Shown here: positions 35,834 to 38,883 of the stretch, in pieces
Position numbering within the stretch: the stretch's first letter is position 1
How the letters are laid out: every line of letters starts with the position of its first letter
Source of the DNA: a virus
IMG/VR virus record: IMGVR_UViG_3300036852_000353
Location: 16,435-80,434 of that record
Length of the DNA: 64,000 bases
Direction: 5' to 3' (one strand)
Program-made: the position numbers and the translations under genes
The notes under the pieces: model-generated
What the model saw: the letters and a program-made list of their open reading frames with translations, nothing else
What the model was told of the DNA's origin: nothing
The model's database searches: none

Positions 35834-37504
35834 TCAATCGCCCTGGGACACCGCATCCCAGGGCCAGACGCCCGCCACTCCCGCTTCGAGCATCGGGATC
35901 AGCTTGAACGCCTGGTCAGTTAGTCCGCCAAGCGTGAAGCGGGCATCACTGCCGCTCGGCATGGCGGAGGCCGTGTATCCCGCGAAGTTCCACATGTACA
36001 CGGGAACGTTGAGAGGGACGACGGCGTCGATGCGGGTGTGCTCGACGCTGTAGCCGTTCTCGTTGGAGGGCAGGTACCCGGGCTGGGTCTGCTCGTCGGT
36101 GATGATGACGACACGGTCGTGGTTGTTGTAGTGGCGGCGGACAGCGGCGGGGATGTTGGTGCCCCAGTCCTTGCCGAACTGCTCGACCAGGGGCAGCACA
36201 CTGGTGCCCTTCTTGACCGTGATCTCCCGGGACTGGCCGTGAAATTCGACCAGGGTCGGGATCTCGGCACGTACAGCCAGCGCGGACCCGAAAACAGCGG
36301 CCTGGTCGGCGCGGGAGATGTCTTTCATCTTCATGTTCGGGAACTTGTGATCCCAGTCGGGGAACATCGACGGGCTGCGGTCCACGAGGATCAGCGTGCG
36401 CCCGCCGAGGGAGGGCACGTTGGCCAGTGAGTGGTTCAGTGCCTGTTCCAGCGGATAGGCCCAGCGCAGCAACCCGGCGTCCTTCGTCGCGCGGTGGGCG
36501 GCGAGAAAGCGGAAGGGGAACTGCCGCGACCGCGCGATGACGTCGGCGTCGGTCAGCGCGGACACGATCTGCTGGGCGACCTTGTCAGAGACCCCTGCCT
36601 GGTCGAAGTTCCGCAAATTGCGGATCTGCGACATGATGCCCATGGACGGGATCATCGCTTCCCAGGCCGCCTTGTCCAATGGGCCCTGCAGCCATCCGGC
36701 CAACGCCTCCCACGTCATCCCCGCTTTGGCGAGGATCTCCGGACCGTCGGGGCCGGTGACCACCGCACGGCGTTCCTCGACCGGCATCTCCATCAGCCTC
36801 TTGCGTGCCGTGAGTGTCCGGTTCGAGTCGGGCGGTACCGCGGTGTCGGGGTGGTGGCGGCGGTCGAGGGCGTATTGGAAGACGTCGCCCTGCCACGGCT
36901 TGTCGGGGTCCGGCGACGCGTGCACCAGGTTGAGGATGTCGCCGAAGCGGTAGCCCTTGGACGCGGTGTCGTACTTCAGCAGCGCCTTGCCGTTGTAGAG
37001 ACGGCGTACGGCGTCGGCGATGCCGCGCTTGACGGGCTTGGGTACGTTGCGGCCGTACGTGGACGTCCAGTAGGCGAGCAGCTCGCCGGGCTCGTCGGCG
37101 CGCTGCAGCACGGAGTCGATGACCTTGCGCGAGCCGAGCTGGTTGTGCTGGAGGCGTTCGGCGGTGAACTCGGCCGCACCAACGAGGGCGGCAGTGCGCA
37201 TGTTGCCCGGTCCGCGGAGCCACTTGAGCATGTCGGCTGTCCAGACCGGGTCTTCCACGGTGGTCTTGCGGATGAGGCGGGCGAAGCGGCTGTCACGGTC
37301 GATGCCCGACTCGTGGAGATGGTCCTTGCCGTCCAGGAGGGCACCGGACGCCATGAGGAATAGCTCACCCTGTGCGGTACGTGTCCATCCCGGCGCGCCG
37401 AGGGCGGTCGTGGTGTCGGGGGTCTTGGAGACCGTGGCGATGGGACTCGTGGTCGTGGCGACCGGAGGCTTGGTCTTGTGGCTGGTGGTGTTGAAGCGGG
37501 CCAC
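35834..37504 (-). CDS. Ro60/Rsr-like TROVE-domain RNA-binding protein with vWA domain
   Basis: ELFL, LRGPGNMRTAALVGAAE, RADEPGE, KYD, LRNFDQAG, RQFPFRF; vWA LILVDRSPSM and VVIITDEQ. Confidence 0.93.
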   Translation of the reverse strand: MARFNTTSHKTKPPVATTTSPIATVSKTPDTTTALGAPGWTRTAQGELFLMASGALLDGKDHLHESGIDRDSRFARLIRKTTVEDPVWTADMLKWLRGPGNMRTAALVGAAEFTAERLQHNQLGSRKVIDSVLQRADEPGELLAYWTSTYGRNVPKPVKRGIADAVRRLYNGKALLKYDTASKGYRFGDILNLVHASPDPDKPWQGDVFQYALDRRHHPDTAVPPDSNRTLTARKRLMEMPVEERRAVVTGPDGPEILAKAGMTWEALAGWLQGPLDKAAWEAMIPSMGIMSQIRNLRNFDQAGVSDKVAQQIVSALTDADVIARSRQFPFRFLAAHRATKDAGLLRWAYPLEQALNHSLANVPSLGGRTLILVDRSPSMFPDWDHKFPNMKMKDISRADQAAVFGSALAVRAEIPTLVEFHGQSREITVKKGTSVLPLVEQFGKDWGTNIPAAVRRHYNNHDRVVIITDEQTQPGYLPSNENGYSVEHTRIDAVVPLNVPVYMWNFAGYTASAMPSGSDARFTLGGLTDQAFKLIPMLEAGVAGVWPWDAVSQGD

Positions 37505-37551: not shown

Positions 37552-37683
37552 GTCCCCGAGATCAGGTCGGTATCGGAACAAGGCGTCTTGGGCCACTCGA
37601 CCACACCAGCAAGCTGGCGACGGGATTCGAACCCGCGTCTCCCTCTGGAAAGGAGAAGTAGCCGATACCTTCGCACCGGGGAC
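37552..37683 (-). ncRNA. Y RNA, YrlA-like (permuted tRNA-like domain), copy A
   Basis: GTCCCC-GGTGCGAAGG 5' strand pairs with CCTGATCTC-GGGGAC 3' strand; inside, a T-arm (GCGGG TTCGAAT CCCGT) precedes a closed acceptor-like stem and a D-arm. Confidence 0.85.
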
Positions 37684-37687
37684 GTCG

Positions 37688-37765
37688 TGGGAGATGAGGG
37701 ATTCGAACCCTCTCGCGACCGGGGCCTGCCGGTGCTTCAGCCGTGTGTCTGGCCAGGACTCTCCC
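37688..37765 (-). ncRNA. Aberrant tRNA-like RNA (Ser-like acceptor, T-arm and long variable arm; irregular D and anticodon arms)
   Basis: GGGAGA/TCTCCC-A acceptor, GAGGG TTCGAAT CCCTC T-arm. Confidence 0.55.
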
Positions 37766-37780
37766 GTGTTCAGTTATATG

Positions 37781-37816
37781 CTGACGGGCTGCGGGAACCA
37801 CCCCGCAGCCCGTCAG
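37781..37816. other. Perfect 15-bp hairpin inside the RNA array
   Basis: ctgacgggctgcggg-aaccac-cccgcagcccgtcag. Confidence 0.8.
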
Positions 37817-37848
37817 TGTGGCCGGACCCACCCGGATACCAGACCAAG

Positions 37849-37923
37849 TGGAACATGGGGGAATCGAACCCCCGACCTCTCGCTTTTCAGACGAGCGCTC
37901 TCTCCGAGCTGAGCTAATGTTCC
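37849..37923 (-). tRNA. tRNA-Phe (GAA)
   Basis: GGAACAT/ATGTTCC acceptor, CT-GAA-AA loop, canonical D and T arms. Confidence 0.93.
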
Positions 37924-38055
37924 GGGTGACCCCTCCCTGTGACGGAAGGGGCAGCGCGACTCGGGACGATCACTCCGGGGTATTCAAGGAAGTGACTCCA
38001 TCACGCTTCTCCAGCGGCCCGTGAAGGCGTACTGCACTGGAGCCGATTTCGGTTG

Positions 38056-38130
38056 TAGGGCCTGGAGGACTTGAACCTCCGACCACTTGCGTATCAGGCA
38101 AGTGCTCTAACCGGGCTGAGCTAAGACCCC
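38056..38130 (-). tRNA. tRNA-Ile (GAT)
   Basis: CTTGC-CT-GAT-AC-GCAAG; canonical cloverleaf. Confidence 0.93.
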
Positions 38131-38133
38131 TAG

Positions 38134-38279
38134 GTGCCTGAGATCAAGATCGACGACACTGTTCGTACCAATGCTCTACCAACTGAGCTACCGGACAGAG
38201 GGGGGAGCTGCCCGGACAGGACTTGAACCTGTGACCTTTGGTTCCCTGTGAAGTAGGTATCGTCTGTCGCACCAGGCAC
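38134..38279 (-). ncRNA. Y RNA, YrlA-like, copy B
   Basis: GTGCCT-GGTGCGACAG / CTTGATCTC-AGGCAC terminal helix; ACAGG TTCAAGT CCTGT T-arm before TAGCTCAGTTGGTAGAGC D-arm. Confidence 0.88.
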
Positions 38280-38288
38280 ATGATGTGA

Positions 38289-38358
38289 CTGTCTGAGATC
38301 AGATCGGCGTCAGGGGGGACTTTTATCAGAAGTACCCTGTTGCCTGCGCACCAGACAG
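38289..38358 (-). ncRNA. Short Y RNA without a tRNA-like domain, copy C
   Basis: CTGTCT-GGTGCGCAGGC / GCCGATCTGATCTC-AGACAG; TACTTCT loop. Confidence 0.75.
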
Positions 38359-38369
38359 AAGTCATGCGC

Positions 38370-38447
38370 GCGCCTGAGGTCAAGAGTGGGCGTTCCGGCG
38401 TGATTTCACCAGAAGAAGTAGCCGGGGGTGCCGTTCGCACCAGGCGC
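38370..38447 (-). ncRNA. Short Y RNA, copy D
   Basis: GCGCCT-GGTGCGAACGG / CTTGACCTC-AGGCGC; CTACTTCTTCT loop. Confidence 0.75.
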
Positions 38448-38478
38448 ACAATGGTTGGCACTCTGTTGAGTTGTCTAG

Positions 38479-38553
38479 GACAGACGACGGGATTTGAACC
38501 CGCACTGCCCCCTCGCATGGCGGGGGCGTGCTGCCAACTACACCACGTCCGTC
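38479..38553 (-). tRNA. Atypical tRNA with His identity (G-1:C73) and ATG at the centre of the anticodon loop
   Basis: 8-bp acceptor GACGGACG/CGTCTGTC; CCCCC-GCCATGCGA-GGGGG anticodon arm; normal D and T arms. Confidence 0.6.
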
Positions 38554-38557
38554 AGGT

Positions 38558-38697
38558 GTACTGCCCGAGATCAAGTCGACGACGCGTTCGTAAGCGCTCT
38601 GCCAGACTGAGCCACCGGCCGACAGCCGGGCGGGATTTGAACCCGCGACCTCTCCATTAACGGTGGAAGAATTCGTCATCTGCGCACCGGGCAGTAT
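38558..38697 (-). ncRNA. Y RNA, YrlA-like, copy E
   Basis: TACTGCCC-GGTGCGCAG / CTTGATCTC-GGGCAGTA; GCGGG TTCAAAT CCCGC T-arm before TGGCTCAGTCTGGCAGAGC D-arm. Confidence 0.88.
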
Positions 38698-38855: not shown

Positions 38856-38883
38856 ACACTATCACCGCCGGTGACTCTGTCAA
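38856..38883 (-). promoter_or_regulatory. Sigma70-type promoter heading the Y RNA/tRNA array
   Basis: TTGACA-N16-TAGTGT with extended TG; predicted start a few nt before copy F. Confidence 0.65.

What the first reader, a model, noticed from the sequence alone, without database searches (positions are those of the whole stretch)
37552..38697. Three YrlA-type RNAs with different permuted tRNA mimic domains
Seen: copies A, B and E each place a T-arm before a D-arm, with the acceptor-like stem closed by a loop (circularly permuted tRNA). The D/T arms differ: TGGTCGAGTGGCCCAAGAC, TAGCTCAGTTGGTAGAGC and TGGCTCAGTCTGGCAGAGC. Established: this order is the YrlA hallmark. Inference: the three domains appear to derive from different tRNA families and present a tRNA elbow with no anticodon loop and no CCA end, so anticodon nucleases could not cleave them and synthetases could not charge them.
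Basis: partly seen in the sequence, partly recalled or inferred. Interest (0 to 1): 0.7.

Follow-up and report, generated by a model that had tools for sequence, protein, structure and literature searches.

The report
Three tRNA-mimic Y RNAs beside Ro60
A soil Streptomyces-type phage carries, just upstream of its Ro60 (Rsr) gene, three small RNA genes of the known YrlA kind, in which a Ro60-docking stem carries an inside-out tRNA body. They are three old, differently built versions, one shaped like a long-armed class II tRNA, so this refines a known family and is not a new kind of element.

Summary
On the minus strand, copies A (37683-37552), B (38279-38134) and E (38696-38559) each have a stem-closed RNA with the order T arm, loop-closed acceptor-like stem, two-nucleotide link, D arm. 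The quoted arm sequences are exact. A TROVE/Ro60 gene starts 48 nt downstream of A.

All three are YrlA-type Y RNAs. Rfam YrlA scores are 57, 39 and 15 bits, all below the curated 69.

They are old paralogues, not recent duplicates. Each is 79-89% identical to its counterpart in phages whose Ro60 is only 57-76% identical, but 63-72% identical to its neighbours.

Each is built differently:
- B is the canonical class I mimic.
- E adds a 5-bp hairpin with a 7-nt loop in tRNA register 27-43, so "no anticodon loop" does not hold for E.
- A is a class II-like mimic with a long variable arm, G9, a 3-bp D stem and a G13-A22 mismatch. I found this subtype only on viral or viral-like contigs.

Origin from three different tRNA families is only partly supported. 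T arms are the YrlA consensus, B and E D arms are interchangeable, and A's stem varies within its own lineage.

YrlAs, phage YrlAs, several per locus and long variable arms are already published. This scan has noted YrlA-like RNAs in many other genomes.

The parts
37552..37683 (-). Copy A: whole Y RNA module (Ro-binding lower stem GUCCCCGGUGCGAAGG / UGAUCUCGGGGAC, upper stem, class II-like tRNA domain)
   Evidence: MFE fold. 85-89% identical to L011/L009 counterparts. Consensus fold. Coordinates checked.
37638..37656 (-). A: variable-arm hairpin (7-8 bp), ending 1-2 nt before the T stem
   Evidence: 15 of 16 A-type relatives have a 5-8 bp hairpin ending 0-2 nt before the T stem.
37620..37636 (-). 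A: T arm GCGGG UUCGAAU CCCGU
37604..37619 (-). A: acceptor-like stem closed by a CUUG loop (6 bp)
   Evidence: In 16 A-type RNAs this stem is always paired, with 3-6 different pair types per position.
37585..37603 (-). A: link UG plus D arm GUC-GAGUGGCCCAA-GAC (3 bp, G13-A22 mismatch, 11-nt loop)
38134..38279 (-). Copy B: whole Y RNA module with class I-like tRNA domain
   Evidence: Rfam YrlA 39.4 bits, E = 9e-7. Consensus fold of 4 phages: 41 pairs, 8 with compensatory changes. Coordinates checked.
38167..38242 (-). B: tRNA-like core. Anticodon-stem-like helix ACCAA/UUGGU, V loop AGGUC, T arm 38232-38216, closed 8-bp acceptor-like stem 38215-38191, link UA, D arm 38188-38173
38559..38696 (-). 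Copy E: whole Y RNA module with class I-like tRNA domain plus extra hairpin
   Evidence: Rfam YrlA 57.3 bits, E = 6e-12. Consensus fold of 8 sequences (4 phages, 4 Streptomyces): 39 pairs, 12 with compensatory changes. Coordinates checked.
38652..38668 (-). E: hairpin UUCCA-CCGUUAA-UGGAG in tRNA register 27-43 (called the V arm in Chen 2014)
   Evidence: (C-G to G-C swap in L023/L022).
38596..38651 (-). E: V loop AGGUC, T arm 38646-38630, closed acceptor-like stem 38629-38615, link UG, D arm 38612-38596
35834..37504 (-). Ro60/Rsr orthologue (TROVE domain), the presumed protein partner. It starts 48 nt downstream of copy A.
   Evidence: Pfam TROVE E = 5e-15. 57-59% identical to Streptomyces chromosomal Rsr. 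Annotated 'Ro-like RNA binding protein' in related phages.

Best explanation
A, B and E are three paralogous YrlA-type Y RNAs of a Streptomyces-type phage. They lie on the same strand as three tRNA genes, short Y RNAs and the phage Ro60 (Rsr) gene, directly upstream of that gene, and are probably transcribed with them.

Each RNA has two modules. The first is a conserved bulged lower stem (GGUGCG... / ...UGAUCUC) that docks on the Ro60 ring. The second is a tRNA-like body in the order T arm, loop-closed acceptor stem, D arm, which folds into the tRNA L-shape through the usual D-loop/T-loop, 15:48 and 9-12-23 contacts.

By analogy with characterised Ro60-Y RNA particles, the tRNA-like body would act as the effector-binding end. 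It would tether Ro60 to, or gate it from, a host factor that recognises tRNA shape, or PNPase.

The three copies are long-separated subtypes that present different surfaces. B has a class I body whose anticodon stem runs on into the Y stem. E has a class I body with a separate anticodon-arm-like hairpin. A has a class II-like body with a long variable arm.

Shown here: sequence anatomy, conservation, covariation, genomic context. Inferred: Ro60 binding, tRNA-type modification, partner recruitment, co-transcription.
For: - Order of parts and exact coordinates.
- Rfam YrlA hits for E and B.
- TROVE gene on the same strand, 48 nt downstream.
- The same module types occur in the same order in phage contigs L008, L009 and L011. 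Similar modules stand upstream of rsr in 80 Streptomyces chromosomal loci.
- Orthologue identity is 0.79-0.89, against 0.63-0.72 within the window.
- Compensatory changes occur in the Ro stem, upper stem, hairpin, T stem and acceptor-like stem.
- In 122 distinct YrlA domains the Levitt pair is G15:C48 in 67 and A15:U48 in 51, with 4 exceptions. N9 follows the 12:23 pair in 116 of 122, the same rule as in host tRNAs.
- From the literature: YrlA is modified by TruB and DusA and lies next to rsr in 254 bacteria and 22 phages (PMC4201824). The crystal structure shows a tRNA L-shape (10.1101/312249). A phage Ro60 binds two phage Y-like RNAs and host PNPase (PMC12135203).
Against: - No expression or binding data exist for this phage.
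- None of the three reaches Rfam's gathering score, and A is not significant on that model.
- Folding-energy z-scores are only -1.5 to -1.75.
- The CGAA motif of the Ro-binding strand is intact only in A (GCGAAGG). B reads GCGACAG and E reads GCGCAG.
- The partner of the tRNA-like domain is unknown even in model organisms.
- No sigma-70-like promoter was found by the consensus scan.
Confidence: 0.8

Rival explanations
1. Origin rival: each tRNA-like domain was captured separately from a different tRNA family, for instance from different tRNA dimers in the array. On this view the three copies are convergent chimeras, not diverged paralogues.
For: - YrlA D arms fall into discrete classes whose best host-tRNA match is isotype-specific: GCGG/ACGC to Leu 20 of 20, GUGU to Gln 5 of 5, GUCG/AGAC to Ser 6 and Glu 3, GCGC to Pro/Ala.
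- A joins a class II-type D arm with a long variable arm.
- B's T arm equals the host tRNA-Ile(GAU) T arm at 17 of 17, and E's V loop plus T arm equals tRNA-Thr(CGU) at 22 of 22.
- A dimeric-tRNA origin, possibly repeated, is proposed in the literature (10.1101/312249).
- The modules sit inside a tRNA array.
Against: - All modules, including those without a tRNA domain, share the Ro stem and the YUAC-UUC motif.
- The T stems of A and E are the YrlA consensus.
- B's D arm is identical to the E-type D arm of L011.
- In the A lineage the same D-loop sits on GUC/GAC with a UG link, or on GCUC/GAGC with a UA link (L012, L020), so the change is stepwise and coordinated.
- A's D arm matches Glu(UUC) at 17 of 20, better than Ser, so no donor can be named.
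- Exact T-arm matches involve very common T stems.
Confidence: 0.2
2. Function rival: the tRNA-like bodies act mainly as decoys or sponges for host tRNA-directed defence nucleases or tRNA-binding enzymes, largely independent of Ro60.
For: - This is a phage with its own tRNA genes.
- Closed acceptor stems would resist charging.
- There are three different tRNA shapes. E's hairpin loop is anticodon-loop-like.
- The A subtype was found only on viral or viral-like contigs: 9 IMG/VR contigs plus 7 further distinct metagenome sequences, against 0 of 401 Actinomycetes-class genomes.
Against: - Every copy keeps a conserved, covarying Ro-binding stem and sits next to rsr.
- Subtypes with an E-type hairpin or a B-like anticodon stem also occur upstream of rsr in Streptomyces chromosomes, where a phage counter-defence role does not apply.
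- There is no defence or anti-defence assay.
Confidence: 0.1
3. They are not Y RNAs at all. They would be tandem-tRNA junctions, tRNA pseudogene debris, or permuted tRNA genes that are processed into decoding tRNAs.
For: - Tandem tRNAs can mimic the T-then-D order. Chen 2014 warns of this.
- The region is a tRNA array.
- M. smegmatis YrlA is cut by RNase P and receives CCA.
Against: - The acceptor-like stems are closed by 3-9 nt loops, with no room for two tRNA halves.
- There is no anticodon in A or B.
- Each element is enclosed by a Ro-type stem that is conserved with compensatory changes.
- ARAGORN calls no tRNA at these places.
Confidence: 0.02

Closest known systems
Salmonella Typhimurium YrlA (Rfam RF02553; Chen et al. 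2014, PMC4201824; structure in Wang et al. 2018, 10.1101/312249)
   Same: It has a Ro-binding stem plus a tRNA-like domain in the order T arm, closed acceptor stem, UA link, D arm. It keeps the tRNA tertiary nucleotides and lies beside rsr. Copy B has the same topology, with the anticodon-like stem continuing into the Y stem.
   Different: The window's RNAs score below Rfam's threshold. The lower stem keeps both conserved strands. A has a 3-bp D stem with a UG link and a long variable arm. E has an extra 7-nt-loop hairpin. The host operon context differs: there is no rtcBA here.
Mycobacterium smegmatis and mycobacteriophage YrlAs (Chen et al. 2014)
   Same: They are actinobacterial and actinophage YrlAs upstream of rsr on the same strand. 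They have V, T, AS and D stem-loops, and phage copies are known (22 phages).
   Different: M. smegmatis YrlA has a 7-bp acceptor stem that RNase P opens. Here the stems are 6, 8 and 5-6 bp, and processing is untested. Here three tRNA-like subtypes stand in one array, interleaved with tRNA genes.
Thermus phage phiLo Ro60 with Yrl1/Yrl2 (PMC12135203)
   Same: A phage-encoded Ro60 has several Y-like RNA genes directly upstream. Binding of those RNAs and of host PNPase has been shown in vitro.
   Different: The Ro60 is distant (28% identity). From the passages I read, no tRNA-like subtypes are described for Yrl1/Yrl2.
Streptomyces chromosomal rsr loci (found here)
   Same: They have the same Ro stem (GGUGCG / GAUCUC) and the same YUAC-UUC motif. 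There is an E-type hairpin copy plus a second YrlA upstream of rsr. Rsr is 57-59% identical to the phage protein.
   Different: Only two tRNA-like copies and one short copy, and no interleaved tRNAs. The second copy's D arm is class I, Leu-like or GCGC. No A-type (Ser/Glu-like) arm was found.
Class II tRNAs (Ser, Leu, Tyr in bacteria)
   Same: Copy A has a long variable arm ending 1-2 nt before the T stem, U8-G9, a 3-bp D stem with a G13-A22 mismatch, and a long D loop AGYGGCCYA identical to host Ser/Glu loops.
   Different: Copy A has no anticodon arm and its acceptor stem is closed by a tetraloop. The body is embedded in a Y RNA, and the T arm is the YrlA consensus.
Circularly permuted tRNA genes of Cyanidioschyzon merolae (from my own knowledge)
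   Same: The 3' half (T arm) precedes the 5' half (D arm) in the gene.
   Different: Those are processed through a circular intermediate into normal decoding tRNAs with anticodon and CCA. Here A and B have no anticodon, and the ends are locked in a Ro-binding stem.

Membership tests
YrlA-type Y RNA | Stem-closed RNA whose internal domain has the order T arm, loop-closed acceptor-like stem, 2-nt link, D arm | tested here: met
   All three copies. Consensus folds of orthologues. 16 A-type RNAs.
YrlA-type Y RNA | Match to Rfam RF02553 at the curated gathering score (69 bits) | tested here: inconclusive
   E scores 57.3 bits (E = 6e-12), B 39.4 bits (E = 9e-7) and A 15 bits (E = 0.17). All are below 69 bits; E and B are statistically significant. 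Orthologues in related phages score 31-49 bits. The control shows this model yields sub-threshold hits in 13 of 14 unrelated genomes, so weak hits alone mean little.
YrlA-type Y RNA | Encoded within 4 kb of, and on the same strand as, a Ro60/TROVE gene (criterion of Chen 2014) | tested here: met
   The TROVE ORF runs 37504-35834 on the minus strand. A ends 48 nt upstream of it, and E begins about 1.2 kb upstream.
YrlA-type Y RNA | tRNA tertiary-interaction nucleotides: U8, A14, R15:Y48, G18G19, T loop UUCRANY, G53:C61 | tested here: met
   Present in A, B and E. The 15:48 pair covaries in 118 of 122 domains, and N9 follows the 12:23 pair in 116 of 122. Host tRNAs follow the same rule.
YrlA-type Y RNA | Conserved Ro60-binding stem with the GNCGAA-type motif | tested here: inconclusive
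   The lower stem GGUGCG / UGAUCUC is conserved in all modules, with compensatory changes in flanking pairs. CGAA itself is present in A only; B has CGAC and E has CGCA.
YrlA-type Y RNA | Bound by Rsr; carries Psi55 and dihydrouridine made by tRNA enzymes | not testable with these tools
   No RNA run holds the stretch. This needs immunoprecipitation and modification mapping.
Class II tRNA mimic (copy A only) | Long variable-arm hairpin ending 1-2 nt before the T stem, with a 3-bp D stem, a 13-22 mismatch and G9 | tested here: met
   Copy A has an 8-bp hairpin with 1 nt before the T stem. 15 of 16 A-type RNAs have 5-8 bp hairpins with 0-2 nt before the T stem. D arm GUC-G...A-GAC with a UG link.
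Decoding tRNA | Free 5' and 3' acceptor ends, and an anticodon arm joined to the D stem | tested here: not met
   The acceptor stems are closed by loops. ARAGORN calls none of them. The Rfam tRNA model gives only 21 bits on part of E.
Descent of each domain from a distinct tRNA isotype | D arm and T arm of one copy both closest to one isotype, consistently across orthologues | tested here: not met
   Best host matches by part:
- E: D arm to Thr(GGU), T arm to Thr(CGU).
- B: D arm to Gly(GCC), T arm to Ile(GAU).
- A: D arm to Glu(UUC) or Ser, T arm to Gly or Glu.
Orthologues give other best matches. B and E D arms are interchangeable.

The most novel reading that the evidence does not exclude
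Phages of this kind keep a panel of Ro60-tethered tRNA bodies that imitate different structural classes of tRNA: a plain class I body, a class I body with an anticodon-arm look-alike (loop consensus CU-NNU-AA), and a class II (Ser-type) body seen so far only on viral or viral-like contigs. On this reading each body recruits, blocks or decoys a different tRNA-reading protein. Candidates are a long-variable-arm reader such as SerRS, enzymes or nucleases that read the anticodon loop, and elbow binders. The D arms of YrlAs would then be repeatedly re-modelled on those of particular tRNA classes.
Probability: 0.12. Interest if true: 0.75.

Novelty: new member of a known kind. Interest (0 to 1): 0.38.

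Why it matters
The protein partner of the tRNA-like end of YrlA is still unknown. Published work stresses how conserved its D and T stems are.

This locus and its relatives show that one phage can carry three long-separated subtypes. They also show that YrlA D arms come in discrete tRNA-like classes, obeying the same 9-12-23 and 15-48 rules as tRNAs. These include a class II-like subtype that the Rfam model barely detects.

That gives three natural variants to use as baits for finding partners, and a test bed for the proposal that YrlAs arose from tRNA dimers.

There is also a practical point. Parts of such RNAs are annotated as tRNA genes in deposited actinophage genomes.

Tried and rejected
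- Folding energy: z-scores of -1.5 to -1.75 are not decisive, and for E the opposite strand scores -2.1.
- RNAalifold on A-type modules mis-aligned the acceptor-like stem and D arm. I used position-anchored parsing instead.
- Naming a donor tRNA for each copy failed. Best matches differ between the D and T parts and between orthologues.
- RNA-repair context: there is no RtcB and no CCA-adding enzyme family in the phage genome. Pfam hits on the 18 flanking ORFs scanned (SNF2-type helicase, AAA_24, collagen repeat, weak TerD) include no RNA-repair domain.
- Promoter and terminator scan: no sigma-70-like promoter; the one terminator-like hit is on the wrong strand.
- The exact A-type pattern was not found in the 401 Actinomycetes-class genomes searched. 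This is a sample and an exact pattern, so it does not prove absence.
- Of 53 metagenome hits to the A-type D-arm string, most were chance matches inside coding DNA. Only those with a T arm and a closed stem upstream were kept.
- The two reviews by Sim and Wolin and the supplementary tables of Chen 2014 are not held. I could not check whether A-type copies are already listed there.
- Permuted-tRNA-gene and tandem-tRNA readings were rejected (see rivals).
Full report
WHERE THIS IS. The window is part of a complete 111,555-bp virus record with direct terminal repeats and 64.6% G+C. A 556-aa ORF on the minus strand (37504-35834) carries a TROVE domain (Pfam E = 5e-15). It is 57-59% identical to Rsr/Ro60 of many Streptomyces chromosomes and 36-47% identical to the 'Ro-like RNA binding protein' of cultured Streptomyces, Arthrobacter and Gordonia phages. 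The host is therefore most likely a Streptomyces or a close relative. Everything discussed here lies on the minus strand, directly upstream of that gene.

CHECK OF THE OBSERVATION.
- Copy A (module 37683-37552) reads, 5' to 3': Ro-type stem, hairpin 37656-37638, T arm 37636-37620, a 6-bp stem closed by CUUG (37619-37604), link UG, and a D arm with a 3-bp stem and 11-nt loop (37601-37585).
- Copy B (38279-38134) has the 5' strand ACCAA of an anticodon-stem-like helix, V loop AGGUC, T arm 38232-38216, an 8-bp closed stem, link UA, D arm 38188-38173, A26, and the pairing strand UUGGU.
- Copy E (38696-38559) has a 17-nt hairpin 38668-38652, AGGUC, T arm 38646-38630, a 5-6-bp closed stem, link UG, and D arm 38612-38596.

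ARAGORN calls six tRNAs in the window but none of these three. Rfam's YrlA model matches E (57.3 bits, E = 6e-12) and B (39.4 bits, E = 9e-7). A gets only 15 bits (E = 0.17), and none reaches the curated 69 bits. Minimum-energy folds of all three give the same outline: a bulged lower stem, an upper stem and a multi-branched tRNA-like domain. The energy z-scores are only -1.5 to -1.75, so stability alone proves nothing.

RELATIVES. Eleven IMG/VR contigs encode a related Ro60. In L008 (Ro60 76% identical), L009/L010 and L011 (59%), the same kinds of modules stand in the same order upstream of rsr, interleaved with tRNAs.

Each window copy is far closer to its counterpart elsewhere than to its neighbours:
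- A is 0.89 and 0.85 identical to the L011 and L009 copies, against 0.72 and 0.63 to E and B.
- B is 0.88, 0.83 and 0.80 identical to its orthologues, against 0.71 and 0.63 within the window.
- E is 0.86, 0.85 and 0.79 identical to its orthologues, against 0.72 and 0.71 within the window.

Consensus folding supports the helices. For E (four phages plus four Streptomyces), 39 pairs were predicted and 12 have compensatory changes. These lie in the Ro stem, the upper stem and the hairpin, where C-G becomes G-C in L023 and L022. For B (four phages), 41 pairs form a clean permuted cloverleaf, and 8 have compensatory changes in the anticodon-like stem, the T stem and the closed acceptor stem.

Streptomyces chromosomes carry a related operon: an E-type copy, a short Y RNA and a second YrlA, all with the same GGUGCG / GAUCUC stem, directly upstream of rsr. 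BRock-like Streptomyces phages, Gordonia phage VanLee and Mycobacterium prophage prophiGD43A-5 each have two YrlA-like hits beside their Ro gene.

THE tRNA-LIKE FOLD. I parsed 122 distinct YrlA domains (36 from phage contigs, 86 from Streptomyces) by anchoring on the T loop.
- The T stem and the first five pairs of the closed stem are always paired, with up to six pair types per position.
- The Levitt pair is G15:C48 in 67 and A15:U48 in 51, with four exceptions.
- Nucleotide 9 follows the 12:23 pair: A9 with U-A in 82, G9 with G-C or C-G in 34, and six exceptions.
- A set of 57 tRNAs from Streptomyces rectiverticillatus shows the same rule.

The parse required paired stems, so 'percent paired' is partly circular. 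The variety of pair types and the two tertiary covariations are not. A, B and E all carry U8, A14, G15, G18G19, C48, the T loop UUCRANY and G53:C61.

HOW THE THREE DIFFER. B is the canonical YrlA design. After the D stem and one nucleotide comes a 5-bp helix that continues towards the Y stem, and the V loop has five nucleotides.

E has instead a self-contained hairpin of 5 bp with a 7-nt loop, placed exactly where tRNA positions 27-43 would be and followed by AGGUC and the T stem.
- Across the 120 domains for which upstream sequence could be recovered, 52 have such a hairpin in this register. Other registers give far fewer: 15 or fewer for a 7-nt loop.
- The loop consensus is C32 U33 N N U36 A37 A38.
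- Chen et al. 2014 call this element the V arm. Wang et al. 2018 discuss long variable loops with possible duplexes.
- Whatever it is called, the statement that the domains have no anticodon-like loop does not hold for E.
- Gene-calling has been misled by this. VanLee 'tRNA-Arg(tct)', prophiGD43A-5 'tRNA-Thr(tgt)' and Alone3 'tRNA-Ser(gct)' overlap such hairpin-plus-T-arm segments, and the named anticodons are the hairpin-loop triplets.

A is a class II-like design: a 7-8-bp hairpin ending 1-2 nt before the T stem, U8-G9, a 3-bp D stem with a G13-A22 mismatch, and the D loop AGUGGCCCA.
- Its D-arm string occurs in nine IMG/VR contigs and in seven further distinct metagenome sequences.
- In every retained case it is preceded by a T arm and a closed stem. 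Fifteen of sixteen distinct A-type RNAs have the hairpin ending 0-2 nt before the T stem.
- These RNAs sit in Y stems of quite different sequence, and several contigs carry A-type copies together with other subtypes (L161, L162, L163, L165).
- The composite pattern (T arm, 10-40 nt, A-type D arm) was found in none of 401 Actinomycetes-class genomes sampled.

DO THE DOMAINS DERIVE FROM DIFFERENT tRNA FAMILIES? Evidence in favour: YrlA D arms fall into discrete classes, and each class has an isotype-specific best match among host tRNAs.
- GCUC/GAGC: 83 domains, a generic class I arm.
- GCGG/ACGC: 20 domains, all best matching Leu.
- GUCG/AGAC: 9 domains, best matching Ser (6) or Glu (3).
- GUGU: 5 domains, all best matching Gln.
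- GCGC: 4 domains, best matching Pro, Ala or Leu.
- GAGC/GCUC: 1 domain, best matching initiator Met.

Evidence against a separate origin for A, B and E:
- The T stems of A and E are the family-wide GCGGG/CCCGY.
- B's D arm is identical to the D arm of the E-type copy of L011.
- The best host matches differ between the D and T parts of one copy.
- A's D arm matches Glu(UUC) at 17 of 20, better than any Ser tRNA.
- Within the A lineage, L012 and L020 carry the same D loops on a GCUC/GAGC stem with a UA link. This looks like stepwise, coordinated change, not import of an arm.
- All modules, with or without a tRNA domain, share the Ro stem and a YUAC-UUC motif.

I conclude that A, B and E are diverged paralogues of one Y RNA family. 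Only A's D arm belongs to a clearly different tRNA-like class, and whether that class arose by conversion from a tRNA or by convergence cannot be decided here.

MECHANISM. Published work establishes the following:
- Y RNAs dock on Ro60 through the lower stem and tether or gate it. In D. radiodurans and S. Typhimurium the tethered partner is PNPase.
- S. Typhimurium YrlA is modified by TruB and DusA.
- M. smegmatis YrlA, which has a 7-bp acceptor stem, is cut by RNase P and receives CCA (PMC4201824).
- The YrlA domain is an L-shaped tRNA mimic, and its partner is expected to be an elbow-recognising tRNA-binding protein (10.1101/312249).
- A Thermus phage Ro60 binds two phage Y-like RNAs and forms a complex with host PNPase in vitro (PMC12135203).

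By inference, the window's three RNAs are released from a transcript shared with the tRNAs and bind the phage Ro60. They may also bind the host's Ro60, since the host's Y RNAs have the same stem. They would then offer three differently shaped tRNA bodies to host factors. I rate identity as YrlA-type Ro60 partners at about 0.8. The choice of partner is open.

NOVELTY. The following are already published: YrlAs, phage YrlAs, several YrlA-like sequences per rsr locus (355 in 276 genomes), V arms, class II-like long variable loops, and the dimeric-tRNA origin idea. This scan has also noted YrlA-like RNAs in many other genomes, and a sister finding covers the array as a whole.

What I did not find in the papers I could read:
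- the sorting of YrlA D arms into tRNA-isotype-like classes, with the 9-12-23 rule;
- the A-type subfamily, with a class II-type D arm and a viral-only distribution so far;
- the co-residence of three old subtypes in one phage operon.

The supplementary tables of Chen 2014 and two reviews were not available. A-type copies may therefore already be listed there. I file the finding as new members of a known kind, with copy A a candidate sub-variant.

Noticed in passing
window 37688-37765 (minus strand): A 78-nt tRNA-like element (X) ends 4 nt before copy A. It has a 7-position acceptor stem (6 pairs and one G-A mismatch) and a good T arm (GAGGG UUCGAAU CCCUC), but an aberrant D/anticodon region, and ARAGORN and Rfam do not call it. 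Its 3' part is conserved in the same place in L008, L009 and L165.
   Followed up: partly
L019:2537-2608, L020:3151-3229, L007:2774-2847: Deposited phage genomes annotate parts of YrlA-type RNAs as tRNA genes: VanLee tRNA-Arg(tct), prophiGD43A-5 tRNA-Thr(tgt) and Alone3 tRNA-Ser(gct). In each case the 'anticodon' is the loop triplet of the hairpin before the T arm, and the 'acceptor' runs into the closed stem.
   Followed up: partly
L021-L100, about 2750-2950 of each locus: In 54 Streptomyces chromosomal rsr loci, the D-arm class of the rsr-proximal YrlA is GCUC in 31, Leu-like in 19, GCGC in 3 and GAGC in 1. The class changes at least 13 times on the Rsr protein tree (label shuffles: mean 19.2, minimum 15), while the T arm and closed stem stay alike. 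This could reflect alternative alleles spread by recombination, or repeated remodelling.
   Followed up: partly
window 38478-38552 (minus strand): The tRNA between copies E and D has a 9-nt anticodon loop (GCCAUGCGA). ARAGORN reads it as His(atg), and Rfam tRNA gives 44.9 bits. L008 has a weak tRNA hit (43 bits) at the corresponding place.
   Followed up: no
window 37923-38055 (minus strand): A 133-nt G+C-rich spacer between tRNA-Ile and tRNA-Phe folds into three strong hairpins (MFE -58 kcal/mol). It matches no Rfam family.
   Followed up: no
window 38856-38883 (minus strand): TTGACA, a 16-nt spacer, then TAGTGT lie just upstream of the first (degenerate) Y module. This is a possible actinobacterial-type promoter for the whole array. 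The consensus scan did not report it, because only 3 of 6 bases of the -10 hexamer match.
   Followed up: no
all Y modules in the window, L008-L012 and L021-L100: A YUAC-UUC motif sits just above the upper stem in every module, with or without a tRNA domain. The UUC usually starts a short hairpin. The UA may correspond to the conserved kink dinucleotide described for Salmonella YrlA.
   Followed up: partly
L005:5079-5242, L007:4967-5199: Sub-threshold manA RNA hits (49.7 and 47.8 bits, cut-off 55.2) lie between tRNA-Lys genes downstream of the Ro gene in BRock-like Streptomyces phages.
   Followed up: no
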